A stretch of 64,000 nt of DNA from a virus: positions 42,649 to 106,648 of IMG/VR virus record IMGVR_UViG_3300023174_000094; one strand, written 5' to 3'. Below the pieces are notes generated by a model. It did no database searches, was not told the DNA's origin, and saw only the letters and a program-made list of their open reading frames with translations. The number at the start of each line of letters is the position of its first letter. The first letter of the stretch is position 1. The position numbers and the translations under genes were made by a program. This document shows, one piece after another, positions 2-64,000 of the stretch.

Positions 2-3000
2 AAGCAGGTAACTGATCTTAGTGCTTCTTTACGCAATCTTGCGGCTAATGTTTCTGGTATTACTGTGCCAATGTCTAAGCTTGATTCGCACACAAGAGCT
101 CTGAATAAGGCTCTTGGTATGGGCACTAGGGGTGCTAAAGAACACGCTACATCCTTTAAGGGTTTAATACAAAACCAAAAGACCTTAAGCATTGAAACTA
201 AAAACCTGACCAAAGATATAAAGGCAATGAACGCCATTATCAAGGCTGGTCATACAACTGATATCATAAACCCTGCTACCGTAGCAAACCTTAAGACACT
301 ACAGACGACATTGAAAAATATGCGTTTGAGAGCTTTTAGCTCTGATATGCAAAGTATCGGGTTGAATTTAAAGAAGCTTGGCAAAGACGCTCAGTTCGTT
401 GGTAGAAGCTTGATGATTAACCTCACAGCGCCATTTACCTTAATGGCTCGCTATGGGCTTAAGGCTCTAACAGATATTGATAAAGAAGCGGTTCGTTTAA
501 CAAAAGTTATGGATGGCGTTGCTATGTCTATTGAACAAGCAATGGCTAAAACTGGTCAAGACGCATCTTCTCCACTAGTTCAGAAATTAGTTAAAAACTA
601 TCAAGAGTTGAATGATGCTTTAACTGCTACAAGTGCTAAGTATGGCATTGCTAAGTCGCTAACTATTGGGCTTGCAGCCGACTTTGCTGAACTGGGTATC
701 GGCGCTAAAGAAAGCGTTGCTGCCATTACAGAGTTAACAGCGGCTACTGAAAAACTTGGTGGTATGGATATATCACAATCTCAAGACCTGATTCAGGCAA
801 TGTACTTCCAGTCAATCAGGGCTTTTGACCAAGCTGGTAGGTCATTTGTTAGCGCTGCAGCAAAAGAAAAAGCAGCTATTGAATCAAGCACTGCTCAATT
901 GCAAATGTTTAACGCAATTGAAAACACTACAGCGCTAACAATGCGTGACCTGGGTGATGCATTCCCAGAAGTTGCGTCAATGGCAACAACATTTGGTTTG
1001 TCAATGACAGAGGCTGCTGCGATGTTAGCGCCAATGAAAGCTGCTGGTCTTGAGGTTGGCGCTTCAGCTAACGCTATTAAAGTCTCTTTGCAGAGAATAG
1101 TTGCTCCGACAAAAGCTAATGCTGAAATGCTCGCTTCTCTTTCTGAGTCTTACAAGAATACTACTCAGGGATCGCAGGCGTTTAATAATGCGACAAGATC
1201 TGGTCTTACTGGTTTGCTGGGAATTGTTGAATCATTCACTGCTGTAAAAGATTCTTCTGCTGGAATGGAAGGTGCAATGCAGATGATGGCAAAAATCTTT
1301 GGTGTCCGTCAAGGACCAAGAATGATGATTGCTATCCAGCAGCTTGCTCAATTCAATGATGAACTAAGAAAAGCAGATCCTCTAGGTCAAAGCGTAGCCA
1401 AGACTCTCGTTAATCTTGCTAACGGAGCAAGTAATAGTTCCAAGCTTGCTATTAAAAATTTTACTGATATTGGAGTTATTGCGAGAGTAGCAACAGCACA
1501 AGTTGGTCAACAAGTTGAAAACTTTGGTGTTGTTACTGTAAAAGATATTAAAGATGCTAACGCTGCTAGAAAAGCGGTTGCTGATGAGATTTTAAGAGCG
1601 AACAGAGAAGGTCGTGACATCATGTCTGAGATCAATACTGAGGCTGGTCGTTCAATGATTGTTGAACTTGCTGGTTCTGCGAGCGCATCTGTTTTGGCGC
1701 AAAGAGAATTGGATGCTTCATTAAAGTCTCTTGATGTTACTATTTCAAAAATTAAAAATAATTTTAAAATATTTGCCGCTGACTTGCTCAATAGCACAAG
1801 ACCTGCAATTGAAAAGATTGCAGAGGTGACAGGTAAGTTGATTGATAAATGGAATAGCTTGTCAGCCACAACAAAGAAAACTGTAGGCGTTCTTGTTATG
1901 TCAATCATGGGAGCGCTCGCAGCGATTGGTCCATTGATTCTTGCTTTTGGTACATTGAGTTCTGTAACTGGCATTGCTATGCGAGGAATATTTAAGTTTA
2001 TACCAAGTCTAAAAAATGCTGAAGGTGGTTTCATTGGACTAGCAGACGCTATTGGTAAGTCTGGAAATAAACTTGATGCACTATATAACTCTTTTACTGA
2101 AGGGAAGGGGCTCCTTGTACGAAGCACTTCTGGAATAGCCGCTGCTGCTGGCTTGCCGATGGGACCAGGTGCTACTGCAGCCGCAGCAGCCGCAGGGACT
2201 ACTCCGCCATCACGCCCATTTAAATTTGCAAGAGTCAAGGGTGTTATTACTCAAGTCGGTGGTGTTGGTATTCCTGCTCCTGGTGGTGTTGGACCAGCTA
2301 TGCCAGGAAGCACAAGAGGTCTCACAGCCGCTAGAAGAGCTTATGCATTAGAAGAGATGGCTTTAACAGATAGGGCTGGAATTACCACAACGAGAACAGG
2401 AAGATTTCAGCAATCACCAACTCTCGGCATCAGAGACAGATTTAGACAATTACGCACTGGAGCAGCGCCTGGAAGATCATTTATTCCTACATCAGTTGTT
2501 AATGATGCAATGGAAAGAAGGCTATCTGCATTTGACAGAGCTGGCATTACACGAGGAGCGGGTAGTGGTCAGTTGTTCAATGCAAGAGGTCGTGCATTAA
2601 GTGAAGATCGTGCTCTTAGAATAGCAAGAGGTGGTGTTGGTGGTCGTATTTCCAGTGTTCTCCAAAGAGGTAAAGAGGCACGAGATGCTATGGCTGGAGC
2701 AACGCCTGGTAGTGTTGGTAGAGGAGTGTTGGCTGGTCAAAGAAGATTGATGACTCAACCTTTTACATCAGCAAAAGGATTGGCAACTGCTGGGATTGGA
2801 AAAGTAAAAGATCTTGATGTATACAAAAATGCATTGACAAGAGTTGCTGAGGCACAAAAGCAATTGCGCATTGACCAGGCAGCTTTTGGTAAAGGTGCAG
2901 TCTCAACCTTCAGTCAGGCAAAAACTTCATTGATGGCTTTTATGAATACTCAGAAGCTAGCAACGGTTGTAGCTAAATTATTTAGGGTAGCGATGGTAAG

Positions 3001-14875: not shown

Positions 14876-16042
14876 ATGAAAGTTTGTGCAACAGAAGGTT
14901 GTAATATAGAGTTTGAACCAAAAACGGCTAATGCTAAATATGGTGATAAATCATGTAGAAAGACCATAGATATTAATGGTCTATGTAGATATAGAAAAGA
15001 AAACGGTCTATTTGAGATAGGAGAAAATCCATTGACTGGAACAGTGCCAGAAACAGAAAGCGAATTGCGTCTTTCTTATAATAAGTTATTGCAGGAATAT
15101 AATAAGGCAAAAGAAAAGAATGTTGATCTAGCAGACGCTGTATATCGTGCGGTGCGAGAAGATATTGAGTCGGTTAAGTATGTACCAGTACCAAAGCCAA
15201 AGTTTGGGAAAGCTACTAAAGGTGAGGAAGTCGCTGTTGCTGTTATTGCAGACTGGCAGTTGGCAAAAATCACTCCAGACTACAACTCGCAGGTTTGTGA
15301 GGAAAGAATCTATAAGTATGCAGAAAAGATTATTCAACTTACTGAGATTCAAAGACAAGATCACCCAGTAAAAGAATTGCATATTTGGGCTCTTGGAGAC
15401 ATTATTGAGGGAGAGCTTATTTTCCCAGGTCAATCATTCTTGGTTGATGGTGGTCTGTACAGACAGATTACTGTTGACGGTCCAAGAATTATGAAGAACT
15501 TTATCAACATGATGCTTGAAAATTTTGAGAAGATTGTTTTTGTCGGTGTTATTGGAAATCATGGTTCAATTGGTGGTAGGGCTAGAAAAGATCATGACCC
15601 TGAGACCAATGGTGACAGAATGCTTTATCGCATTACTCAGCTCATGTTTGAGAATGAAAAAAGAATTGAATTCAGAATCCCTGATGGTCGTGGTGAAAGA
15701 CACTGGTATGCGGTTGATAAGATTGGCAATTACAAGAGTCTATTGTGTCATGGTGATCAGTTCGGTAGTCTTTCAACATTCTACGGCTTTCAGAAGAAGG
15801 CTTATGGTTGGAAGATCGGGGCTATAGAAGATGATTTTGATGATGTCTATCTAGGACACTTCCATACTCCTACAAAGATGACATTCAATACTGTTCAGAT
15901 GAGAATCTCAGGAAGCCCTGAATCAACAAACACTTATGCTGTAGAGAGACTAGCTGCTGTAGGCAGACCATCACAGCCCCTTATGTTTGTGCATCCTGAA
16001 AAGGGTATTGTTACTGCTGAATACAATTGCTGGCTGGATTAA
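14876..16042 (+). CDS. Calcineurin-like metallophosphoesterase with N-terminal Zn-ribbon and coiled coil
   Basis: ADWQ, LGDIIEG, GNHG, HGD and GHFH motifs. Confidence 0.8.
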   Translation: MKVCATEGCNIEFEPKTANAKYGDKSCRKTIDINGLCRYRKENGLFEIGENPLTGTVPETESELRLSYNKLLQEYNKAKEKNVDLADAVYRAVREDIESVKYVPVPKPKFGKATKGEEVAVAVIADWQLAKITPDYNSQVCEERIYKYAEKIIQLTEIQRQDHPVKELHIWALGDIIEGELIFPGQSFLVDGGLYRQITVDGPRIMKNFINMMLENFEKIVFVGVIGNHGSIGGRARKDHDPETNGDRMLYRITQLMFENEKRIEFRIPDGRGERHWYAVDKIGNYKSLLCHGDQFGSLSTFYGFQKKAYGWKIGAIEDDFDDVYLGHFHTPTKMTFNTVQMRISGSPESTNTYAVERLAAVGRPSQPLMFVHPEKGIVTAEYNCWLD

Positions 16043-16885: not shown

Positions 16886-17168
16886 TTGGCTAAACGAAGC
16901 TGTCTGTGCAAATGATGAACGACCAACAGCTTGGCTATCGTATGACATTAGCGATATACAATACGCCAAGCTTGGTTGTTCTAAATGCACTGTGAGAAAG
17001 CAATGCATTCTTAATGCATTTCGTAATGACCCATATGTAGGTGTAAACGCAGGGATATCCGAGTATGACTTTTTAATGCTTACTTGGAAGGAGGCTACAA
17101 AAGTAAATGGAAGTAACTGGAGCAGAGCTGATAAAGTTCTTCAAGGAATCGTGCGACAAGTCAAATAA
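16869..17168 (+). CDS. whiB: WhiB-family transcription factor (divergent)
   Basis: W...A.C, AK..C..C.V...C, GVNAG in place of GVWGG. Confidence 0.65.
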   Translation: MKAQSDWLNEAVCANDERPTAWLSYDISDIQYAKLGCSKCTVRKQCILNAFRNDPYVGVNAGISEYDFLMLTWKEATKVNGSNWSRADKVLQGIVRQVK

Positions 17169-19705: not shown

Positions 19706-20353
19706 ATGTCATTTCAATCACTTAAAACCCTAAAAGACCTTGAGAGTGCAGTAGCACCAACTCAAGGCGCTAAATCAGGAGTAAAGAAATACTTTACTCT
19801 TCAGTCAGGCGATTCGTTCAGGATTCGCTTTCGTCAAGAGCTCACAGAGGATGCTTCAAACTTCACAGAAGAAGTCGGAACTGGTATTACAGTTCCAGTT
19901 GTAACTTCACCAATCAACTGGAAGTGGAGAGTTGCATCTACCGCTTCATTTGAGAAGTACAACTATCGTTGCTGGGCTAGTGAACAGTCAGTAAAGGATA
20001 AGGCATGGAGAGCCAAGCCTCACTTGCTTATCAATATCGCAGTTGAAATTGAGCCAGGAGTATGGGAACCTCGTATCCTTGACACCACTTTTAATCAACG
20101 CCATGTTGGTCTTACACTGATTGAATACGCTAAGGAATTCGGTACCATTATGGACCGAGAGTATAAGTATTCCCGAACTGGTTCATCAGCATCGGATACA
20201 AACTACAGCCTTATTCCGCTGAGCGTATCAGAAGTGCCAAAGGGCGTTGCAGACATGCCAATGCATGAATTGGAAAATGTCTACATGACACTTCCATATG
20301 AGAAGCAACAAATCTTCTTGACAACTGGTGAGTTGGGCAAGGATACTTGGTAA
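19706..20353 (+). CDS. Single-stranded DNA-binding protein (gp32-like)
   Basis: Position after the primase, RTG....DTNYSL motif, strong RBS and terminator. Confidence 0.6.
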   Translation: MSFQSLKTLKDLESAVAPTQGAKSGVKKYFTLQSGDSFRIRFRQELTEDASNFTEEVGTGITVPVVTSPINWKWRVASTASFEKYNYRCWASEQSVKDKAWRAKPHLLINIAVEIEPGVWEPRILDTTFNQRHVGLTLIEYAKEFGTIMDREYKYSRTGSSASDTNYSLIPLSVSEVPKGVADMPMHELENVYMTLPYEKQQIFLTTGELGKDTW

Positions 20354-25498: not shown

Positions 25499-26413
25499 AT
25501 GTTAATTGTAGATAAAAGAAAAGGCGACACAATGCCTATTCACGATGTTATTCCAACCCCCAGTATCGGTTTAAATCGGGCTTTGGGTGGCGGTTTAAAT
25601 ACTGGTGCGACTCACTTGTTTTGGGGTACGCCATCGGTGGGCAAAACGACTATGTGTTTTCGGATTATTGCCGAAGCCCAAAAGCTTGGGTATCGCCCTG
25701 TCATTATTGACTCGGAGTCATCTTATAATGATGAGTATGCTGCCAAATGCGGGATTGATATTGAAGATGTCGTAATCATTCAATCCACGATTGTGGAAGA
25801 TATCATGAAGAATCTGATTGGATATCTGACGGATGATAAAGAAAAACATATTTTCTTGTTTGACTCATTGTCTAATATCATCAAGGAAGAGTTCTACGAT
25901 AAGCCTGAGGGTGGGAAAGCAATGGGCTTGCAATCACGCTCGCAAGGCTACCTGCTACAAAAGCTGGTGAACTATCTCCATAAGGAGCGCAACATCATGT
26001 TGTTTGTTGCTCACCAAACAGTTGACTTGAGCGGAATGTTTGCGGTGACAAAAGCCAAGATGGGCAACACGGTTCACCATAACATGCACAACATCGTCAA
26101 ACTCTTTCTCTCAATGTCAAAGAGCGAAATGGAGCGTGAGGAGAACAATATGATCACCTCGCAACGAGCAACCTGGACTGTTGAAAAAACAAAACAGATT
26201 CCCACAATCGGGGCAACGGGTTATTATTATGTTCTCCCACAAGAGGGGCGAATTGATCAATATCGTGAAATTATTGATATTGCAATTGAGATGGATATTA
26301 TTCAGCGCAAGGGTGCCTGGTATTCCTATGAAGAAAGTAAATGGAATGGCATGGGAGCAATTGAGTTGTCTGACAAGCAGACGAAGGAAATACTCAAGCG
26401 CATAAATGCATGA
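25499..26413 (+). CDS. recA: RecA/UvsX-like recombinase
   Basis: LNRALGGG, GTPSVGKTT, IDSE, FDSL and KGAWYSY motifs. Confidence 0.9.
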   Translation: MLIVDKRKGDTMPIHDVIPTPSIGLNRALGGGLNTGATHLFWGTPSVGKTTMCFRIIAEAQKLGYRPVIIDSESSYNDEYAAKCGIDIEDVVIIQSTIVEDIMKNLIGYLTDDKEKHIFLFDSLSNIIKEEFYDKPEGGKAMGLQSRSQGYLLQKLVNYLHKERNIMLFVAHQTVDLSGMFAVTKAKMGNTVHHNMHNIVKLFLSMSKSEMEREENNMITSQRATWTVEKTKQIPTIGATGYYYVLPQEGRIDQYREIIDIAIEMDIIQRKGAWYSYEESKWNGMGAIELSDKQTKEILKRINA

Positions 26414-28894: not shown

Positions 28895-29638
28895 ATGAAG
28901 GCATTAAAGCAATTAAGGGCTCCTAAAGCAGTAGCGCCAGTGAGTGAAGAAGTTGTTATGAAAGACCTGGTTGAGGCTATTAACGAGCATCTCGCCCTGA
29001 GAAATACCCCATCTTTTAAAAAAGTTAATGGGTTTCATCCTAGTTATACCAATCAGTGTGCAAGATACTGGTATTACATGTTTGAAGGAATTAGTGTAAC
29101 TCCATCATTTAATCCTCAGACTTATCGTATTTTTGATAATGGACATGCTGTTCATGAAAGACTTTATAGCTATCTGAGAGACATGGGTATCCTTGTAGCA
29201 GAAGAAATTCGTGTAACTCATGAAGATCCGCCAATTGAAGGTACTGCAGATGGTATAATTAATTGGTATGGTGAAAAACTAATTGAGCTAAAATCAATTA
29301 GTCAAGAAGGCTTTCACTATAGACAATTACATAACAAACCAAAAGACGAACATTACCGACAAGCCCAAATTTACATGGAATGCTTGAACCTGGATTCAGG
29401 TTTTGTCATTTACGAAAACAAAAATAATCAGGAGATCCTTCCAATCTTTATTGAAAGAGATCAACCGTTTATTGATAAATTATTTAAAAAGTATAGGAAG
29501 TTTCATGGTGCTTATTTGAGCAAAGAAATTCCTGTACAGCCATACAAGAGAAGCTCGGCTAACTGCTCTTCTTGTGATTTGGCAAAGCACTGCTGGGCAG
29601 AAGGAGAGCAAAATGAAAGTGAGGACACCCCGTTCTGA
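28895..29638 (+). CDS. Cas4-like (PD-(D/E)XK, Fe-S) exonuclease
   Basis: C.R, G..VH, GTADG, ELKS, Q.QIY and CxxC....C motifs; solo phage Cas4 with no CRISPR array. Confidence 0.85.
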   Translation: MKALKQLRAPKAVAPVSEEVVMKDLVEAINEHLALRNTPSFKKVNGFHPSYTNQCARYWYYMFEGISVTPSFNPQTYRIFDNGHAVHERLYSYLRDMGILVAEEIRVTHEDPPIEGTADGIINWYGEKLIELKSISQEGFHYRQLHNKPKDEHYRQAQIYMECLNLDSGFVIYENKNNQEILPIFIERDQPFIDKLFKKYRKFHGAYLSKEIPVQPYKRSSANCSSCDLAKHCWAEGEQNESEDTPF

Positions 29639-33191: not shown

Positions 33192-33309
33192 AAAATGTTT
33201 ATTTTTAACGCTACCATAAAGGTACAAAAACCTCTTTTTTTTACACCGTCACATAAAGGTACAGAAAGCCAGATGAAGAAACAGCTCACGCATACAGGTG
33301 GTGATTCAC

Positions 33310-42535: not shown

Positions 42536-42809
42536 TTGGACAGAAAATGCGCTTTGCAAAGGAGTGCATCATATTCAATTCTTTTCTGAAGAGATTAGAG
42601 AAATTAAAAATGCAAAAATAATGTGTAGTCAATGTCAAGTAGCATCTAATTGCCTTGTGCAAGCAATAAAGAATCAAGAAATTTATGGTGTTTGGGGTGG
42701 TCTTTCACAAAGAGAACGCCGAAAATATCATCGTCTTTATAAAGAAGCTATTAACCTAGACATTGCAAAGGAGATTGTGATTAAACATGGTAACAAACTC
42801 ATTAGTTGA
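42525..42809 (+). CDS. whiB: WhiB-family transcription factor
   Basis: W...ALC, FF, AK.MC..C.V...C and YGVWGGLS.RER. Confidence 0.9.
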   Translation: MENSWTENALCKGVHHIQFFSEEIREIKNAKIMCSQCQVASNCLVQAIKNQEIYGVWGGLSQRERRKYHRLYKEAINLDIAKEIVIKHGNKLIS

Positions 42810-56288: not shown

Positions 56289-57071
56289 AAAGTCTCGTCT
56301 TAAACGCTCAAATAAAGGTATAAATATAATAAATTATTGGGTGTATTAGGTAAAAACAGTACAAAATAAGGTAAAAACACCTAATTTCCTTAGGATTTTT
56401 ATATAACGCTATAAAATGTATCGTTTTAGCTCCTCCATAAAGGTATTCTCTCTCTAATAGAATAAAGAACTAGTAGAATGAATAATATAATCCCCCAAAA
56501 TATAAGGCGGGTTATTTGTGTGTCTATTCCCTATAGAGAAGGTAAACATATTTATATCTGAATACCCCGAAAATTAAATGAGGGAATTAGAGAGCATATT
56601 TATAAAAAATTTAGTGTCCAGTTAGGTGTGCCTATTAGGGGCGGGATTAAATTAGAAATCTTATGTTGAATAGGGTCTAAATTACAATAGGGTAATTGAC
56701 TCAGCTAATAGGTTGTCTAATACCCGCCCCATAAAGGTATTACATTATCTAAATATTCACATAAAGCGTTTTCTAATTTTTTTTGTGTACTCTATGTAAC
56801 ATTACAATCGTGTAATATTACACCAAGCGTATTTTGTTTTAGGTAAAGTATTATCTAAAGCATTAGCACCTGGCGTGTAATATTACATCCCCGCAGCCGA
56901 TCAAAAATTGAATGAATAATTGGATAAGGAATTAAAACTTTATTTTATTAATTTTTGTGTGAGGTTGGTTTCTATTGAATTAGCCGATAGAATGGGGTTC
57001 TAAATCGGTAATGAAATTACCAAATAAATAAAATATTGGATAAAACATCAAACATAGAATAGGAAAAAATA

Positions 57072-57416
57072 ATGTCAGAATCAAAAAAAATCAAATTTGA
57101 AATCATTGAAGAAAATGATTTGGAATTTGTTCAGCGTGGTCGTAAATCTAATCTTTCAGATGAATTTGTGAATGAGATTAAGAATACGATTATTGCTAAC
57201 AAAATGGTTGAAGGTAAGAAATTCCTTACACTTACGGAATTGGCTATCCCTTCAGATTTGACCAACGATAAGGATAAGAAAAACTATAAGGCTACAACTT
57301 CGGCAATGCTTCGGGGTTTGGCTAAGCGTTTGGGTTATTCTTCAGAAATCCGTTGGCATAAGGAAACTGTTCCAGCAATTCGTTTCGGAATAGATAAGCC
57401 TAAGGCTAAGAAATAA
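57072..57416 (+). CDS. RGRKS-family basic protein (unit A)
   Basis: FEIIEENDLEFVQRGRKS...LRGLAKRLG...IRW; TAGAAT -10 at 56988; AGGA RBS. Confidence 0.85.
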   Translation: MSESKKIKFEIIEENDLEFVQRGRKSNLSDEFVNEIKNTIIANKMVEGKKFLTLTELAIPSDLTNDKDKKNYKATTSAMLRGLAKRLGYSSEIRWHKETVPAIRFGIDKPKAKK

Positions 57417-57477: not shown

Positions 57478-57612
57478 ATATAAATGGGGTTAAGAATTGT
57501 ATTCAGATAAAGGTTTCATAAAGGTTAGGATAAAGATATGAATTCATTTTTGCAGCGAGATAAAGGTAGGGAATTGGATTAGAAATTATGTACTAAATTA
57601 GATAAAGGTTAT

Positions 57613-57690
57613 GTGTAATATTACGAGGGTGTAATATTACATGAATTTAATATTACACCCTCGTGTAAGATTACAGGCGTGTAATATTAC
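57613..57690. repeat. Five-box element H0 with 17-bp inverted repeat and 8-nt spacer
   Basis: ACGAGGGTGTAATATTA-CATGAATT-TAATATTACACCCTCGT. Confidence 0.85.
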
Positions 57691-57855
57691 CTGGATGTAA
57701 CAAAAATTATGGGGACTGGCTGGGGTTATTCAGACAGCCTGGAACAATATGCCTATTGTTACAGAGCTGGAATATTATGCCCAACTAGTCCCCTTCTGTT
57801 ACGAGGCTGTAATTTTACAGCCCTGCGACTTTACTCGCATGAGATCCAACGAGAC

Positions 57856-58155
57856 CTACTTCTTAGAAGTAGACAAAATTGCGATCTGCGGTACGCCTGC
57901 TGGCGACCAACGGATAGCAACCTTCACGCCAGCAAGTTTGCCAGCCGAGCGTAGGTTCGCAGAAACGCGAGCCTTCTCAGTCTTGACAACTTCCGCTGGG
58001 GAAGTCATGTCAACTTTTTCAGAAGCGACTGCTAGAGCCTTACCCTTTGTAAGTTTACGCAATGCGTCTACCAACTCAGGATCAGCATTGGACTTGCGCC
58101 CACGCTGTACAAACTCTAACGCAGACTCGTCAATGATCTGATATTTATCAGCCAT
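57856..58155 (-). CDS. RGRKS-family basic protein (unit B)
   Basis: YQIIDESALEFVQRGRKS...KARVSANLRSAGK...IRW; GAGG RBS. Confidence 0.85.
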   Translation of the reverse strand: MADKYQIIDESALEFVQRGRKSNADPELVDALRKLTKGKALAVASEKVDMTSPAEVVKTEKARVSANLRSAGKLAGVKVAIRWSPAGVPQIAILSTSKK

Positions 58156-58506
58156 TATTACCTCTGTGTAAGTTTAGAAGTGACAACTACCTTATGCCTA
58201 AAGTAGCCTCGGTGTAATTTTTGGATCGTACACCCGAACCCTTCCCGCAACTTCTAGGCTGGACACCGAGAGCCAAAATTGCACACCTGTAATTTTACAG
58301 GGAACTCGCCTAATGGGGAACTCGGCTGGGGTCAACCAGCACTAATGACGATATCAAAGATTCTATGTAATAATAGGCTAATTCTAAAATTACATAAAGA
58401 TATTCTCTGACTGATATATCACCAAATCCCTAAAGTTACATAGACATAAACCCTAAAGTTACACGAATACAATTCCATAAAGTTACATGTATCTAATATT
58501 ACATTC

Positions 58507-58615
58507 CATAAAGATACTAAAGTTTTCTTACACTTGTGTAATATTACCGCAGGTGTAACTTTAGCAGAAAGTAAAGTTACACCTGCCTGTAATAATACAG
58601 GCGTGTAAAATTACA
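58507..58615. repeat. Five-box element H1 with 15-bp inverted repeat and 8-nt spacer
   Basis: GCAGGTGTAACTTTA-GCAGAAAG-TAAAGTTACACCTGC at 58549-58586. Confidence 0.85.
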
Positions 58616-58625
58616 CAGCTGTAAC

Positions 58626-58667
58626 AAAAGAGAGCCCCTCCCCAGGGGGTTGGGGAAGGGCTACTCT
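58626..58667 (-). terminator. Intrinsic terminator of unit C
   Basis: GC-rich hairpin with an A-run on the + strand side. Confidence 0.65.
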
Positions 58668-58687
58668 ATTCTTACACGCAGGTAAGT

Positions 58688-58963
58688 TTACTTGGCAACG
58701 ACTACCTGTGGAGTTCCGTCTGTTGCCCACATAATTTTGACATTGACTTTGGCTTGCTTGCCTGCCGAACGGATTGTTGCGGAGACACGAGCCTTGTCTG
58801 TCTTGAATGTGTCGGTCTTTGGGTTTAGTTTCATGTCTGTAATTTTTACTGCTTTACCCTTTGGCAAGGTCTTTAGTGCTTCTACCAATTCAGGTTCTAC
58901 ATTTGACTTGCGACCTCGTGGAGTAAACTCCAGTGCGGTTTCCTCAATGATTTGGAATTTCAT
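58688..58963 (-). CDS. RGRKS-family basic protein (unit C)
   Basis: MKFQIIEETALEFTPRGRKS...KARVSATIRSAGK; AAAGG RBS; TTGCAA-N17-TACCTT promoter. Confidence 0.85.
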   Translation of the reverse strand: MKFQIIEETALEFTPRGRKSNVEPELVEALKTLPKGKAVKITDMKLNPKTDTFKTDKARVSATIRSAGKQAKVNVKIMWATDGTPQVVVAK

Positions 58964-59246
58964 TTTTCTACCTTTGCGTGAGTACCGCCTAAGCGGTTGT
59001 CTAGGCGTTGTTGCTTTGACATATGTAAAGGTAATGGATAGGAATAGGAATTGCAAGGTAATGAGAATGTAACAATGTCGGGAAACCCAATGCCCATATG
59101 AGATATATCACGCTCATTGTTACAATTTGGTTACAAACCTATTTTTCGGTGTAAGTTTAGAAAAAGTCTATTATTACATGACCCCCATAAAGGATACAGC
59201 CTTATATTACATCTGGGTAACTTTCAGGGTTCGCCTTGTATTATTA

Positions 59247-59355
59247 CATAAAGATACTAAACTTTTATTACATGTGTGTAAAATTACAGCGGGCGTAACT
59301 TTAGCTTTATGTAAAGTTACGCCCGCCCGTATTGTTACATGCGTGTAATTTTACA
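59247..59355. repeat. Five-box element H2 with 15-bp inverted repeat and 8-nt spacer
   Basis: GCGGGCGTAACTTTA-GCTTTATG-TAAAGTTACGCCCGC at 59289-59326. Confidence 0.85.
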
Positions 59356-59369
59356 AACCAGGCGCAAAG

Positions 59370-59394
59370 AAAAACCCCCGCTTTTGGCGGGGGC
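59370..59394 (-). terminator. Intrinsic terminator of unit D
   Basis: AAAAA-CCCCCGC-TTTTG-GCGGGGG. Confidence 0.7.
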
Positions 59395-59415
59395 TAATCT
59401 TACTGCTGTGTAATT

Positions 59416-59508
59416 TTAGTCTTGTTCCATGTACCACGCTAACGCTACTGGAATAATTATCCATGACCAAAGAATAAAGACACCATAGATTATTTTTAGT
59501 ATGTTCAT
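59416..59508 (-). CDS. 30-aa hydrophobic peptide
   Basis: Read manually as MNILKIIYGVFILWSWIIIPVALAWYMEQD; AGGAG RBS. Confidence 0.5.
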   Translation of the reverse strand: MNILKIIYGVFILWSWIIIPVALAWYMEQD

Positions 59509-59526
59509 TGTTACACTCCTGTAAGT

Positions 59527-59772
59527 TTAGTTAGCCAATATATCTTCGGGTAGTTCGTCTGTAATGTCTCGCTCGTCTGCGCTCGCATCATCATCGTCTA
59601 TGTTCTGAGCAAAAATTACACTCATGTCAGTGTCGTCATCTTGCGCCTTATCGTTTTTGATAGAGCGTAGTAACTTCCCTAGTTCCTCTATGTTTTCAGC
59701 GTAGTAGAGAAAACTATCGCACCATTCCTGAGTGCCATTCTCAAACTGCCAAGATACCTCGTATGTGTTCAT
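59527..59772 (-). CDS. Small highly acidic protein
   Basis: GGGAG RBS; Asp/Glu-rich. Confidence 0.65.
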   Translation of the reverse strand: MNTYEVSWQFENGTQEWCDSFLYYAENIEELGKLLRSIKNDKAQDDDTDMSVIFAQNIDDDDASADERDITDELPEDILAN

Positions 59773-59789
59773 GTAATTTTACTCCCTTG

Positions 59790-60014
59790 TTATTTTTGGG
59801 TTTCGCCCAAAGTAGATGAATATGAATGATCACTATCCTCAATTTGTGTTGTGGTATTCAGAATACCGCAATACTTACAGGTTGCGTGTATTTGGGTAAT
59901 CGTATATTTGCCGTGTTGTGTCTCGGTTGAATCTGTACCAATGAACATATATTCATGGGCTAGATCATCTCGGTAATTTATTCTATTCCTAATCTTACAG
60001 GTAAGGTATGACAT
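59790..60014 (-). CDS. Small CxxC protein (first gene of unit D)
   Basis: GAAAGG RBS, leader hairpin and TAGGAT -10. Confidence 0.6.
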   Translation of the reverse strand: MSYLTCKIRNRINYRDDLAHEYMFIGTDSTETQHGKYTITQIHATCKYCGILNTTTQIEDSDHSYSSTLGETQK

Positions 60015-60177
60015 TTGTAATTTTAGCCTTTCTAACTTATTGGGCGGGATTACCCAACAAACAAATCCTACCCCATATCCTTATGTAAGTTTAGGTAATT
60101 TTAGGGTTATTTTTTACCTATAAAATGAGCTGTATTATTACATTCCCATAAAGGATGAGTTTTGTAATATTACATTA

Positions 60178-60258
60178 CATAAAGGTATTAAACTAATCTT
60201 ACACTTGTGTAATATTACTGCGGGTGTATGGGGTCGCTACGCTGGGGAAGACACCCGC
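60178..60258. repeat. Left-half element H3
   Basis: CATAAAG...TTACACTTGTGTAATATTAC, then GCGGGTGT...ACACCCGC. Confidence 0.7.
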
Positions 60259-60335
60259 CCGTTTGATGCGAATTTGCAACAACGGTGAAGTCCAATGAAT
60301 GGTACACGATGTTGCGCATTTGCAACAGTGTGTGC

Positions 60336-60368
60336 AAAAAAAAAGCGGGGGCATTTCTGCCCCCGCAA
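60336..60368 (-). terminator. Intrinsic terminator of unit E
   Basis: A9-GCGGGGGCA-TTTC-TGCCCCCGC. Confidence 0.85.
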
Positions 60369-60385
60369 TCTTTTTGTGTTTGTCG

Positions 60386-60814
60386 TTACTTGCGAACGAT
60401 GAACACCTTTTCTGCCTGTACCGAAAATGGTTCACGCTTTGCGATTGCATTGTTGGTTGCCCAAACAACATCAACGCTTGCCGTGATGATGTTGTTATTC
60501 TGCAACGATTGCAAACGCTGGCGGATTGCATTGTCTGCACGATAGTTGGTTGCTTTACGGCAAACCAAGTTTCGTTGAACTGATGGTGCATTATTTGCAA
60601 TGCACCACTGGCGCATGGCTTCGGCATTGTCAATCGTCTTTGGCATTACTGGCAACGACATTGCAACTGTGATTGCTTCAAGCAAAATAGTTGTACCTTT
60701 ATCGGTATAGAACTTTTTTACTTTGGCTTTGGAATTGCGTTGCGACTTTGCAACAAGTTTCTTTTCCAATGCAACAACTTTGGTTGCATCGGCTTTGCTT
60801 TTTTTCTGTGCCAT
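60386..60814 (-). CDS. Basic protein (unit E), paralog of 61657
   Basis: RADNAIRQRLQSL; TTGCGT-N18-TAGTAT promoter; AGGA RBS. Confidence 0.75.
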   Translation of the reverse strand: MAQKKSKADATKVVALEKKLVAKSQRNSKAKVKKFYTDKGTTILLEAITVAMSLPVMPKTIDNAEAMRQWCIANNAPSVQRNLVCRKATNYRADNAIRQRLQSLQNNNIITASVDVVWATNNAIAKREPFSVQAEKVFIVRK

Positions 60815-60997
60815 TTTTTTTCCTAATCTGTAAGTGCCAAGCGGATTACTTGACAACACAAATACTAGCGCAAGCGTGTAACACTACGCAAGCATCAAAA
60901 AACCCCTGTATTTATTGACTTTTTTGCATGTTTTCATAAAGCGAATTGCAATTACATTTATATACTAAAAATGGTACATAGTGTTGCATTTATGCAA

Positions 60998-61072
60998 CGG
61001 GTGTGCGTCTGCTACATTCTTGGGCAGCTCCACACCCGCCCGCCGTGTAATTTTACAGGCGTGTAATTTTAA
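60998..61072. repeat. Right-half element H4
   Basis: CGGGTGTG...CACACCCG, then GTGTAATTTTACAGGCGTGTAATTTTA. Confidence 0.7.
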
Positions 61073-61203
61073 GTTGAAAAATGGGGGGTTTCTAAACTTA
61101 CATAAAGGTAATTTTTGTACGCATTAAAGCTGGATAAAGGGGTATCAGTGTTTTGCTTGGTGCATGGAAAAACCCCCCGATTTCTCAGGGGGCTCATTCC
61201 CGT

Positions 61204-61656: not shown

Positions 61657-62127
61657 CTACCTTTTGGCGAATACCACGAGGTCGGCTATTTCGGGGTCGG
61701 TAGCCTTGACCTTCATACCGTAGGCGAGACCTCGGCGGGCTTGTACTGCCTTCACCCATGCCATGCCCTTGACAGTGGCGAGACTGTCTAGGCGTACTTG
61801 TATGGCGTTATCAGGTCGGTCATTGACCTCTGCAGGGCTCTTACTTGCCTTACCCTGTAGGTGCTTGTATCGCAATACTGCAGGCACTGTCACTGCCTTG
61901 CCTGCCTCGTATGCTACCGATACCTCTGCCTGCAGAGCCTCTACGCTCTTACCCTGTACCCATGCCTCTGCTACTGCAGTCAGTAGCACCATGTCCACAT
62001 AGGTAGCCTTGTGACCTGCCTTGAGGTCACGGGTACGCTCTGCCTCTACTGCCTTGAGGCTCTTGGCTACTAGAGCCTTTGCCTCGGTGCTCACCTTGTA
62101 GGTGAACCTTGCCTTTGGTGTTGCCAT
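61657..62127 (-). CDS. Basic protein (unit F), paralog of 60386
   Basis: RPDNAIQVRLDSL; TTGCTA-N17-TATCTT promoter; leader hairpin; GAAAGG RBS. Confidence 0.8.
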   Translation of the reverse strand: MATPKARFTYKVSTEAKALVAKSLKAVEAERTRDLKAGHKATYVDMVLLTAVAEAWVQGKSVEALQAEVSVAYEAGKAVTVPAVLRYKHLQGKASKSPAEVNDRPDNAIQVRLDSLATVKGMAWVKAVQARRGLAYGMKVKATDPEIADLVVFAKR

Positions 62128-62448
62128 GTCCTTGCCTTTCGCTTAGGTGTTGAGCCCGTTGCTCAACCTCATGTAATAAAAGATACAGGACATAGATACA
62201 CATAGCAAGCACTGACCTCATCTAAAACCCTTATAAAATAAGGCTTTTATGAATTGTTTAGAAATAGTTTCGGAATTGGGTGAAGAATTGGTTCATTCTG
62301 ACCTTGTAGGGCATTGACCATACCCAACATACCAATTTAGGTACACCGTAAAATACGGCATAACACTGTTTTAATATATACTCAATTTTTCTAAAAAAGG
62401 GCGTGGGCGGGAATTGGGCGGGAGCTGGTTTAAAATGCGGGAGAATAG

Positions 62449-63397: not shown

Positions 63398-63948
63398 TTT
63401 CCCCCTTGAAAATCAATATTAACAACCATCCTAAATGGAGAGCGAACAGGGTTTGAGGCTGCGTGAATATTGCTGCCATCAAAGATGATAGCCCGCCCTG
63501 GTTTTGGATATACGGTGTCCTGGAGCTCGCATGCTTCATTAAAAAAGTAAGTTGGTCCATCTGAGTCGTTTATGTAATATAGAAGAACTTTATGGTCAAC
63601 AGGATCTCCGTTGTCGTACTGTAAATCAATATGAGGAACCTGAGATTCATAGTTCATCTTTGGGGGGTATGGAGAGGTTACATTTACCTTAGCCCGCAAA
63701 AGATTAATATTACCAAATCTATCTACCAGATTACCGACAAGCTTGCCAATTGCAGGTAGATGACTAGAGGCAATATCTGATTCAGATTCATACAGATGAT
63801 GTGACATCTGCATTGGTGCATGAGTCCACATTTCACCCTCGTGATAGATATGGCTACGATAGAACCGATAAGAAACTTGAGGGTCGGTAAAGTATTCATA
63901 CAGATACCCCTGTTCTTCTATGGGCACATAGTTATCAATAATCAACAT
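63394..63948 (-). CDS. 2OG-Fe(II) oxygenase-like protein
   Basis: PHID, LYYIND.DG.T, FDG...HA...P....R.V.N; likely start MLIIDN. Confidence 0.85.
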   Translation of the reverse strand: MLIIDNYVPIEEQGYLYEYFTDPQVSYRFYRSHIYHEGEMWTHAPMQMSHHLYESESDIASSHLPAIGKLVGNLVDRFGNINLLRAKVNVTSPYPPKMNYESQVPHIDLQYDNGDPVDHKVLLYYINDSDGPTYFFNEACELQDTVYPKPGRAIIFDGSNIHAASNPVRSPFRMVVNIDFQGGK

Positions 63949-64000
63949 GGCTGGCGAGGTAGGGCTTGAACCCACGACCCAGGGATTAACAGTCCCTTGC
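63948..64000 (-). tRNA. tRNA-Asn(GUU), partial (5' end outside window)
   Basis: AGGGA-CTGTTAA-TCCCT anticodon arm, GGTTCAAG T-loop and encoded CCA. Confidence 0.88.

What the first reader, a model, noticed from the sequence alone, without database searches (positions are those of the whole stretch)
57613..61072. Array of conserved five-box elements with a lox/FRT-like 13-8-13 core separating self-contained gene units
Seen: three full elements (H0 57613, H1 58536, H2 59276) each contain five GTGTAAnnTTAC-like boxes spaced 16/17, 16, 18 and 16 bp apart. Boxes 2-3 form perfect inverted repeats around an asymmetric 8-nt spacer: GGGTGTAATATTA-catgaatt-TAATATTACACCC, AGGTGTAACTTTA-gcagaaag-TAAAGTTACACCT and GGGCGTAACTTTA-gctttatg-TAAAGTTACGCCC. 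The arms differ between copies but change compensatorily, so the symmetry itself is conserved. Each element lies just beyond the terminator of a promoter-leader hairpin-gene-terminator unit. Two more partial copies (H3, H4) and degenerate ones (about 56811-56887 and 58208-58270) exist. Established: arms around an 8-bp asymmetric spacer is the geometry of tyrosine-recombinase sites such as loxP and FRT, and T4-like phages shuffle early genes through repeated promoter stem-loop elements. Inference: a phage cassette-shuffling (integron-like) array, or cooperative protein-loading sites in the first-injected DNA. No recombinase gene is in this window.
Basis: partly seen in the sequence, partly recalled or inferred. 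Interest (0 to 1): 0.82.

Follow-up and report, generated by a model that had tools for sequence, protein, structure and literature searches.

The report
Hairpin-and-box joints between phage early genes
The repeated boxes and hairpins are real punctuation units between the single-gene early cassettes of a freshwater actinobacterial phage; relatives gain, lose and reorder cassettes at them, most likely by ordinary homologous recombination, as with T4-type PeSL cassettes, and not by a lox/FRT-type enzyme.

Summary
GTAANNTTAC occurs 24 times against 1.15 expected, and 21 of these lie at 56.8-61.1 kb. H0-H2 have perfect 15-17 bp stems with 8-nt loops.

The conserved unit is larger and strictly oriented along the minus-strand early genes. 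A palindrome GCRGGYGT...ACRCCYGC (core 32-34 nt) is followed after exactly 32 nt by TTKAGTRY, with boxes on both sides. All five window copies (H0-H4) have it, as do about 18 other lake-phage contigs.

Across 44 distinct hairpins the inner stem covaries: 159 of 220 Watson-Crick pairs against 70 when partners are shuffled. Loop length varies from 2 to 22 nt, and the arms differ between copies. The genome has no tyrosine or serine recombinase and no Y1 transposase. Cassette breakpoints fall after the hairpin, around TTKAGTRY and the next box, not in the loop. The lox/FRT reading is therefore not supported.

Cassette gain, loss and reordering at these elements is supported, and the phage carries UvsX-like recombination genes.

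Best reading: a PeSL-like terminator-side palindrome plus promoter/operator cassette. The box type is lineage-specific. The role of the 32-nt spacing is unexplained.

This scan has noted what appears to be the same 38-bp palindrome system in another freshwater phage genome (e1-5872243).

The parts
57590..57705 (-). Module H0. Boxes start at 57613, 57629, about 57647, 57663 and 57679. Palindrome core is 57628-57659. TTTAGTAC is read on the minus strand at 57597-57590. This is the last module of the array; no early gene follows it.
58514..58630 (-). Module H1. Palindrome core 58552-58583, boxes 58536-58614, TTTAGTAT on the minus strand at 58521-58514, immediately followed by CTTTATGG.
59254..59354 (-). 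Module H2. Palindrome core 59292-59323, boxes 59276-59354, TTTAGTAT on the minus strand at 59261-59254.
60185..60340 (-). Module H3. Palindrome base GCGGGTGT/ACACCCGC, core 60223-60255, with an irregular interior. Variant motif TTTAATAC on the minus strand at 60192-60185. On its gene-E side the GTAA boxes are replaced by TGTTGC-N6-GCAACA boxes (60264-60327).
   Evidence: (family D17)
60962..61072 (-). Module H4. Palindrome 61000-61036. TTTAGTAT on the minus strand at 60969-60962. A TTGCA-type box lies in the 32-nt spacer (60982-60998). GTAATTTTA boxes lie upstream at 61045-61071.
57709..57793 (-). Long hairpin followed by a T-run, read on the minus strand: terminator of gene A, just before H0.
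   Evidence: read directly
58633..58662 (-). Intrinsic terminator of gene B (12 pairs, followed by a T-rich tail).
59373..59395 (-). Intrinsic terminator of the three-gene unit 60014-59416.
60345..60366 (-). Intrinsic terminator of gene E (9 pairs, followed by a run of eight T).
61168..61193 (-). G+C hairpin plus T-run ending the unit 61583-61204.
   Evidence: read directly
57856..58155 (-). Early gene A (99 aa, RGRKS family).
58688..58963 (-). Early gene B (91 aa, RGRKS paralogue).
59416..60014 (-). Three small early genes (74, 81 and 30 aa) in one unit. GTAAnTTTA motifs lie at the cistron junctions. The 81-aa gene sits in a different unit in relative L024.
60386..60814 (-). Early gene E (142 aa). 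The unit is rich in TTGCA/TGCAA: 23 in 901 nt.
61657..62127 (-). Early gene F (156 aa), the first unit of the array considered here.
59028..59056 (-). Gene-proximal promoter of gene B: TTGCAA, 17 nt, TACCTT.
   Evidence: read directly; the same architecture occurs in L001 and L002
62180..62208 (-). Gene-proximal promoter of gene F: TTGCTA, 17 nt, TATCTT.
   Evidence: read directly
58360..58388 (-). Promoter-like site upstream of gene A: TTTAGA, 17 nt, TAGAAT.
57500..57610 (-). Boundary stretch after H0 with five CTTTAT(C/G) motifs (ATAAAG on the plus strand), facing the convergent plus-strand RGRKS gene 57072-57416.

Best explanation
Each element is a composite transcription-punctuation cassette between single-gene early units of a roughly 106-kb freshwater siphophage with an actinobacterial host.

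Read along the early genes (window minus strand), the order is:
1. stop codon and G+C-rich terminator;
2. boxes;
3. a strict DNA palindrome (GCRGGYGT...ACRCCYGC);
4. exactly 32 nt holding one box;
5. TTKAGTRY, which looks like a -10 hexamer (TAGTAT or TAGTGT) without a -35;
6. a box starting about 7 nt later;
7. more boxes and CTTTATGG motifs;
8. the gene's own TTGNNN-17-TANNNT promoter, often giving a leaderless message.

Inferred functions:
- The palindrome closes off or insulates the upstream unit.
- TTKAGTRY restarts transcription.
- The palindromic boxes, which sit at the -35 and +1 positions of that start, are operators for a lineage-specific dimeric regulator.

Shown by comparison: because the conserved blocks recur at every joint, the phage's own homologous recombination machinery can exchange, delete, duplicate and reorder cassettes there. 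The system works like the PeSL cassettes of T4-type phages but is not related to them in sequence.
For: Geometry:
- Among 73 distinct hairpins from 25 loci, 68 have a core of 32-34 nt.
- KAGTRN lies at offset 32 in 58 of 146 flanks, against at most 2 at any other offset. 70 of 73 hairpins have T/G-A-R-T-R at offset 31-33 on at least one side.
- All 36 matches in the first five sequences (the window and four loci) lie on the early-gene strand.
- The two T at positions 31 and 32, which the search did not require, are present in 63 and 57 of 64 copies. Boxes sit at +4..14 and +45..54.

Palindrome:
- Stem positions 8-12 form 159 of 220 Watson-Crick pairs in 44 distinct hairpins. Shuffled partners give a mean of 70 and a maximum of 97 in 10,000 trials. 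All four pair types occur.
- Orthologous copies in L001 and L003 changed both arms together.

Promoter likeness:
- TAGTAT and TAGTGT also serve as the -10 of gene-proximal TTGNNN-17-TANNNT promoters placed 6-7 nt before ATG/GTG start codons in L001 and L002.

Host:
- The genome has two WhiB genes, and the sequence occurs in lake metagenomes.

Lineage-specific boxes on a constant scaffold:
- L004, L018, L020 and L027 have 0-1 GTAANNTTAC but 41-143 CTAAC/GTTAG each. The other module-bearing loci have 4-43 GTAANNTTAC.
- Window unit E uses TTGCA-type boxes. CTTTATG is shared by all lineages.

Shuffling:
- L001 differs from L003 by a 393-bp insertion flanked by a direct repeat of about 25 nt (TTTAGTATGAAATTGYAATATTACA).
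- A 432-bp cassette is 95.6% identical between L001 and L002, while the flanks that align at all are only about 67-77% identical.
- L019 and L024 carry an extra 1-kb unit at H0, L019 has 470 extra bp at H3, and the 81-aa gene is relocated in L024.
- Contigs of lake run X4 skip or reorder units with joints at several places in the elements.
- Ends of homology blocks cluster 0-70 nt after the hairpin (17 of 30). Only 2 of those 30 ends, and 3 of 66 starts and ends together, fall within the 33-nt hairpin.

Recombination genes in the phage: UvsX-like recombinase, Cas4/RecB-type exonuclease, SbcD/Mre11-like exonuclease and SSB.
Against: - No transcript ends are available. All four runs were held as assembled contigs, which cannot show starts, ends or strand. 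Promoter, terminator and operator roles are therefore inferred from sequence.
- TTKAGTRY has no conserved -35, and its last position is T in only about half of the copies.
- Its distance to the gene-proximal promoter varies (4, 26 and 54 nt in L001).
- A module also follows the last early gene, where no restart is needed.
- Only 23 of 64 modules have a strict hairpin-plus-T-run terminator within 80 nt upstream, and the palindrome itself lacks a T-run.
- The strict 32-nt spacing is not explained by a simple terminator-plus-promoter picture.
- No box-binding protein was identified. The RGRKS proteins have no Pfam, PDB-sequence or fold match.
- Some of the metagenome contig joints could be assembly chimeras at repeats.
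Confidence: 0.55

Rival explanations
1. The palindrome acts at the DNA level as a structural promoter element. It is either a cruciform or the site of a structure- or symmetry-specific protein. Its centre lies about 61 bp upstream of a start driven by TTKAGTRY, and it replaces the missing -35 contact or senses supercoiling. The boxes only modulate it.
For: - The 32-nt spacing and the 32-34 nt core length are strict while the spacer sequence is free.
- Stems are almost purely Watson-Crick. G.T and A.C mismatches are equally rare (17 each), so no strand-specific wobble appears as would be expected for an RNA stem.
- Stems have a G+C clamp at the base and an A+T-rich upper part with an unpaired centre.
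- If TAGTAT spans -12 to -7, the palindrome spans about -77 to -45 (inference).
Against: - 17 of 73 copies have only 7-9 bp of perfect stem with large loops, and H3 and H4 fold weakly (z = -1.6 and -2.8).
- No supercoiling or binding data exist.
- Homology blocks place the palindrome with the upstream gene rather than with the downstream promoter.
- Templated correction of quasi-palindromes could keep arms complementary without selection for a structure (established knowledge, not tested here).
Confidence: 0.2
2. The elements are sites of a site-specific recombination system: lox/FRT-like crossover in the loop, or attC-like folded sites with the crossover at the conserved TTKAGTRY core. A recombinase excises and inserts the cassettes.
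For: - Structure is conserved while arm sequence varies, one site lies at the 3' end of each gene, and a conserved 8-mer sits at a fixed distance. These features resemble attC sites and hairpin-guided cleavage sites.
- The ends of one recently exchanged cassette lie within a few nt of TTKAGTRY and the next box.
- Homology ends cluster there.
Against: - The CheckV-complete genome has no tyrosine recombinase, serine recombinase or Y1 transposase.
- Loop length varies from 2 to 22 nt, and arms share only about 7 nt.
- Stems are perfect, without extrahelical bases.
- Every cassette has its own promoter and terminator.
- Junctions are spread over at least three conserved blocks and the box arrays. 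One side of the L002 cassette joins at a box with no TTKAGTRY present.
- A crossover in the loop between unlike copies would leave non-complementary arms, which are not seen.
Confidence: 0.06
3. The elements are plain tandem operators. Boxes 1-5 are duplex binding sites for one repressor or nucleoid-type protein, and the 'hairpin' is only two inverted operators with no structural role.
For: - The boxes are 12-bp palindromes typical of dimer sites, spaced 16-18 bp apart, and lineage-specific.
- The hairpin arms themselves look like boxes (GTAAnnTTA) in the box-bearing lineages.
Against: - The two free central positions of the arm 'boxes' are complementary between arms in 52-54 of 64 copies, although they differ between copies.
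- Units without GTAA boxes (in L001 and L003, also fetched as L025 and L016) keep long, perfectly covarying stems.
- The CTAAC-box lineage keeps the same palindrome base and the 32-nt rule.
Confidence: 0.12
4. The elements encode RNA. Either the hairpin is a 3' stabiliser or a U-tract-less terminator of the upstream message, or short or antisense RNAs start at the many CCATAAAG(G/A)TA motifs that point against the early genes.
For: - The hairpin travels with the upstream gene in homology blocks.
- Many upstream G+C hairpins lack a T-run.
- A 1995 paper title reports poly-U-less terminators in the early region of actinophage phiC31. It is listed as reference 34 of PMC2602773; the paper itself is not held.
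- In the genome, ATAAAGGT occurs 17 times on the plus strand against 2 for its reverse complement, and two copies sit just upstream of the terminase gene.
Against: - There are no Rfam matches beyond chance.
- There is no G.U enrichment on either strand.
- CTTTATG contexts show no -35.
- The motif is nearly absent from late-gene intergenic regions.
- An RNA role does not explain the fixed 32 nt to TTKAGTRY.
Confidence: 0.07

Closest known systems
PeSL (promoter-early stem-loop) cassettes of T4-type myoviruses (Arbiol et al. 2010, PMC2839356; Comeau et al. 2014, PMC4122927)
   Same: Both are small composite promoter and stem-loop motifs repeated between small early genes of unknown function. Indels, replacements and reordering between relatives break at the motifs, and a phage-encoded recombination system is present (for the papers; here).
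   Different: - This is a siphophage of an actinobacterial host with no sequence relation to T4-type phages.
- The stem-loop sits at one fixed distance (32 nt) from a -35-less motif, whereas PeSLs have five variable placements.
- The stems are strict palindromes with covarying interiors, not polyG/polyC terminators.
- There are extra arrays of lineage-specific palindromic boxes.
- Mini-circles were not tested.
SAS/ESAS repeats of Cluster K mycobacteriophages (Pope et al. 2011, PMC3203893; function still unverified in 2025, PMC12699233)
   Same: Both are in actinophages. An asymmetric short motif is paired with an upstream imperfect inverted repeat with a variable spacer (4-13 bp). Both are confined to the non-structural region, in one orientation, with subcluster-specific repeat consensus and unknown function.
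   Different: - The SAS lies 3-8 bp before start codons and looks translational. TTKAGTRY lies 40-360 nt from the next start.
- ESAS arms are conserved in sequence (17 bp), not freely covarying.
- No cassette shuffling is reported at SAS/ESAS sites.
loxP/FRT-type tyrosine-recombinase sites and integron attC sites
   Same: Inverted arms surround a short asymmetric centre (in the three window copies). As with attC, structure is conserved while sequence varies, and there is one site per gene cassette.
   Different: There is no recombinase, the centre length is variable, the arms are not shared between copies, there are no extrahelical bases, the cassettes carry their own promoters, and breakpoints are not in the centre.
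Stoperators of Cluster A mycobacteriophages and repeated operators of other phages (from memory, not checked in papers here)
   Same: Many copies of a regulator site are spread through intergenic spaces of non-structural genes.
   Different: Stoperators are asymmetric 13-mers without an associated palindrome or fixed-distance motif, and no repressor is identified here.

Membership tests
loxP/FRT-type tyrosine recombinase site | Cognate tyrosine recombinase encoded with the sites | tested here: not met
   PF00589 has no match in the 106.6-kb genome, which CheckV rates 100% complete; all 14 control genomes matched.
loxP/FRT-type tyrosine recombinase site | Same arm sequence in all copies and a fixed 6-8 bp spacer | tested here: not met
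   Only GGYGTRR is shared. There are 39 distinct inner 5-mers in 64 copies, and loops run from 2 to 22 nt.
loxP/FRT-type tyrosine recombinase site | Crossover inside the spacer | tested here: not met
   Only 2 of 30 homology ends, and 3 of 66 starts and ends together, fall within the hairpin. Clusters lie at 0-9, 30-39 and 50-59 nt after it. All arms remain complementary.
Integron attC | Adjacent IntI integrase and promoterless cassettes read from one promoter | tested here: not met
   No integrase is present. Each unit has its own TTGNNN-17-TANNNT promoter and terminator.
Integron attC | Imperfect hairpin with extrahelical bases and RYYYAAC/GTTRRRY cores | tested here: not met
   Stems are perfect with no bulged bases in most copies. 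The base is GCRGGYGT, not the attC cores.
PeSL-like regulatory cassette (functional class) | Composite of an early promoter and a stem-loop in intergenic spaces of small early genes | tested here: met
   Sequence level only: hairpin plus the -10-like TTKAGTRY and gene-proximal promoters. No expression data.
PeSL-like regulatory cassette (functional class) | Indels, replacements and reordering between relatives break at the cassettes | tested here: met
PeSL-like regulatory cassette (functional class) | Mini-circles formed by exchange between neighbouring cassettes | not testable with these tools
   Only assembled contigs could be laid on the sequence; raw virome reads are needed.
PeSL family proper (T4-type phages) | T4-type myovirus and a sigma-70 consensus promoter with an A+T-rich upstream stretch | tested here: not met
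   This is a siphophage with a 1842-aa tape measure protein, a DnaE-like polymerase and WhiB genes. There is no DNA match to 50,697 phage records.
Canonical intrinsic terminator | G+C-rich stem followed by a U-tract | tested here: not met
   The palindrome is followed by YGC plus a box, not a T-run. The separate upstream hairpins do have T-runs in 23 of 64 copies.
SAS/ESAS (Cluster K) | 13-bp motif 3-8 bp upstream of start codons | tested here: not met
   TTKAGTRY lies 40 to more than 300 nt from the next start codon.

The most novel reading that the evidence does not exclude
The palindrome, the 32-bp spacer and TTKAGTRY form one device of a kind not yet described. It could be a sequence-free, structure-defined DNA palindrome that docks actinobacterial RNA polymerase, perhaps with a phage WhiB-type partner, at a -35-less start. 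Or it could be the 3' 'joint' signal of a cassette-exchange mechanism that needs no classical recombinase. On either reading, the spacing and not the sequence would carry the information.
Probability: 0.15. Interest if true: 0.75.

Novelty: new variant of a known kind. Interest (0 to 1): 0.5.

Why it matters
The element defines, from sequence alone, the grammar of the early, probably host-takeover, region of a widespread group of uncultured lake actinophages: where units start and stop, and where genes are exchanged. This gives a handle for annotating their many orphan early genes and for tracing cassette flow between phage lineages. It also provides a clean test case, with 73 natural variants, for why a strictly complementary but sequence-free palindrome must sit exactly 32 bp from a short motif. 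It shows that PeSL-style modular shuffling is not confined to T4-type myoviruses.

Tried and rejected
- Nucleotide search of the region against 50,697 phage records found no match. A protein search with the RGRKS protein against the same collection also found none.
- Rfam gave only sub-threshold chance hits in 54-64 kb; the tRNA fragment at the contig end is real. There is no tRNA-like gene in the 57709-57793 hairpin.
- The sigma-70 consensus scan gave 16 sites against 17.8 expected, so it is uninformative.
- RGRKS proteins as the box binder: no Pfam, PHROG, PDB-sequence or Foldseek match. The AlphaFold2 model has mean pLDDT 74.5. A resemblance of RGRKS to the RGR minor-groove motif of Lsr2/H-NS is only a recollection and was not confirmed.
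- Reading CTTTATG as a -10 with a -35 partner: TTG is not enriched at the right distance (at most 6 of 191).
- RNA evidence: the runs were held only as contigs, so no starts, ends or strand could be read. X20 holds a small share and X18 is probably DNA. Parts of the stretch without cover in those runs are not evidence.
- A first pattern scan used too short a gap and found one unrelated contig.
- The wobble-pair strand test was inconclusive: 17 G.T against 17 A.C.
- The phiC31 terminator paper (PMC306685) is not held. A literature search for the phiC31 conserved inverted repeats found nothing usable.
- No sigma-70 region 2 gene is present in the genome.

Full report
**What the DNA is.**
The window is the last 64 kb of a 106,648-bp virus record. 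Its two ends overlap by 331 bp at 99.4% identity, so the map is circular or terminally redundant and the contig ends are arbitrary.

It is a siphophage. It has a tape measure protein of at least 1842 aa, a DnaE-like polymerase of 1132 aa, a DnaB helicase and a primase. Its large terminase is about 42% identical to those of Streptomyces cluster phages. It carries two WhiB genes, a family found in only one of the 14 control genomes, the actinobacterium Corynebacterium glutamicum. Its sequence occurs in many lake-water metagenomes. The host is therefore most likely a freshwater actinobacterium (inference).

GTAANNTTAC occurs 24 times against 1.15 expected, and 21 copies lie between 56796 and 61056. 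There are none in the other 42 kb of the genome.

H0, H1 and H2 have five boxes each, and boxes 2 and 3 form perfect hairpins with 8-nt loops. These hairpins fold far better than shuffled sequence (z = -9.8, -7.1 and -5.9).

The genes between the elements lie on the minus strand, and each ends in a hairpin plus T-run. All further description reads the minus strand, which I call the early orientation.

**The conserved unit is larger than the five boxes.**
Four related IMG/VR contigs were found with the RGRKS protein. A pattern scan added about 18 more contigs. In all of them the same oriented module appears:
- a palindrome with the base GCRGGYGT...ACRCCYGC;
- exactly 32 nt of spacer;
- the motif TTKAGTRY.

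A search for hairpins by structure alone gave 73 distinct copies, 68 of them with a core of 32-34 nt. KAGTRN lies at offset 32 in 58 of 146 flanks, against at most 2 at any other offset. The two T before it, which the search did not require, are present in 63 and 57 of 64 copies. Boxes sit at +4..14 and +45..54.

All five window elements obey the rule.

**The palindrome is selected as a palindrome.**
In 44 distinct hairpins, stem positions 8-12 form 159 of 220 Watson-Crick pairs. Shuffled partners give a mean of 70 and a maximum of 97 in 10,000 trials. All four pair types are used at each position. Orthologous copies in L001 and L003 differ on both arms yet stay complementary.

G.T and A.C mismatches are equally rare, 17 each. 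So nothing points to an RNA stem on one strand, and a DNA-level role is at least as likely.

17 of 73 copies keep only 7-9 perfect pairs, and H3 and H4 fold weakly.

**The boxes are lineage- or unit-specific.**
The contigs behind L004, L018, L020 and L027 have almost no GTAANNTTAC but 41-143 CTAAC/GTTAG each. Window unit E (60.2-61.1 kb) uses TGTTGC-N6-GCAACA boxes and is itself rich in TTGCA. CTTTATG is common to all lineages. A constant scaffold with changing short palindromes is what operator-regulator pairs look like in heteroimmune phages (inference). No binding protein was found.

**Promoters.**
In L001 and L002 the genes are preceded by TTGNNN-17-TANNNT, with the -10 only 6-7 nt before ATG or GTG. 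This implies leaderless messages, which are common in actinobacteria. The same form is seen in the window before genes B and F.

TAGTAT and TAGTGT occur there as -10 hexamers. TTKAGTRY is therefore most simply a second, -35-less start, with one box over its -35 position and one box at its +1. This is inference.

Several points weigh against it:
- Its distance to the gene-proximal promoter varies (4, 26 and 54 nt).
- It also follows the last gene of the array.
- Its sixth base is T in only about half of the copies.

**Recombination.**
The genome has no tyrosine recombinase, serine recombinase or Y1 transposase. It does encode a UvsX-like recombinase, a Cas4/RecB-type exonuclease, an SbcD-like exonuclease and an SSB.

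Comparisons between relatives show the following:
- L001 carries a 393-bp cassette absent from L003, flanked by a direct repeat of about 25 nt made of TTTAGTATG, a few bases and a box.
- The same cassette is 95.6% identical in L002, while the flanks that align at all are about 67-77% identical. Identity starts at a box and stops just after TTTAGTATG.
- L019 and L024, close relatives of the window, have an extra 1-kb unit at H0. L019 has 470 extra bp at H3. The 81-aa gene 59527-59772 sits in another unit in L024.
- Contigs from lake run X4 skip 745-769 bp between H1 and H2, skip 1717 bp between H2 and H4, skip 364 bp between two GTAATTTTA motifs, and join back in two places. The joints lie at different points of the elements. 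Some could be assembly chimeras.
- Over all pairs of loci, homology blocks end mainly 0-70 nt after the hairpin, with clusters at 0-9, 30-39 and 50-59 nt, which correspond to the three conserved blocks. They start anywhere in the following box array. Only 2 of 30 ends, and 3 of 66 starts and ends together, fall within the hairpin.

This is the pattern of homologous exchange in short shared blocks, as described for PeSLs. It is not the pattern of a crossover in a fixed spacer. A loop crossover between unlike copies would also leave mismatched arms, and none are seen.

**Verdict.**
The elements are PeSL-like punctuation and shuffling cassettes of a new form. The lox/FRT reading fails each of its defining tests.

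What remains unexplained is why a sequence-free palindrome must lie exactly 32 bp from TTKAGTRY.

The nearest actinophage parallel is the SAS/ESAS repeats of Cluster K phages, whose function is also still unknown.

Earlier notes of this scan describe similar arrays in other phages. One freshwater phage has a 38-bp strict palindrome and looks like the same system. Those notes are leads, not evidence.

Noticed in passing
G000 1-331 and 106318-106648 (window 63670-64000): The contig ends repeat 331 bp at 99.4% identity (2 mismatches). A tRNA-Asn (gtt) on the complementary strand spans the boundary of the repeat. IMG/VR calls the record linear, but the map closes into a circle.
   Followed up: partly
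window 16887-17066 and 42537-42725 (+): Two WhiB-family genes (70.2 and 35.9 bits). They point to an actinobacterial host and are candidates for reprogramming sigma-A at -35-less phage promoters.
   Followed up: partly
window 60180-61080: Unit E has its own box type (TGTTGC-N6-GCAACA) and 23 TTGCA/TGCAA in 901 nt, including inside the coding sequence. H4 is a hybrid with TTGCA-type boxes on one side and GTAATTTTA boxes on the other. It looks like a cassette imported from a lineage with different boxes.
   Followed up: partly
L004, L018, L020, L027 (two IMG/VR contigs): A sister lineage keeps the palindrome base, the 32-nt rule and CTTTATGG but replaces the GTAANNTTAC boxes with CTAAC/GTTAG repeats at about one per 85-150 nt. 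GTTAGG lies upstream and CTAAC downstream of the palindrome, extending its symmetry.
   Followed up: partly
L001 6430-6861 and L002 4407-4836: A 432-bp cassette (a 41-aa gene with promoter, terminator and palindrome) is 95.6% identical between two phages whose flanks, where they align at all, are about 67-77% identical. This indicates a recent transfer between lineages.
   Followed up: yes
window 33200-33270: Two copies of (C)CATAAAGGTACA lie just upstream of the large terminase gene. They are the only intergenic copies of this motif outside the 56.4-61.1 kb region, and they have the same orientation on the plus strand.
   Followed up: no
window 62378-62430 (-): Before the first early unit, TTGAGTAT is present without a palindrome. 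It is preceded by two copies of TCCCGCCCA, and a similar ATTCCCGCC repeat precedes GAGTAT in L001 and L003.
   Followed up: no
window 57500-57610 and L001 about 8500-8560, L006, L007: After the last module, a conserved non-coding boundary stretch carries CTTTATC/CTTTATG repeats and TCTAATCC-type repeats. It faces the convergent gene block.
   Followed up: no
window 25499-26413, 28895-29638, 14876-16042, 19706-20353 (+): The phage encodes its own recombination set: a UvsX-like recombinase, a Cas4/RecB-family exonuclease, an SbcD/Mre11-like exonuclease and an SSB.
   Followed up: partly
L001 2792, 3169; L002 935, 3360, 3973: Several early genes start 6-7 nt after a TANNNT hexamer with no Shine-Dalgarno sequence, so the messages are probably leaderless.
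   Followed up: partly
window 57072-57416 (+), 57856-58155 (-), 58688-58963 (-): There are three RGRKS paralogues, one on the opposite strand beyond the array boundary. The family is known only from lake metagenomes. The AlphaFold2 model (mean pLDDT 74.5) has no fold match.
   Followed up: partly
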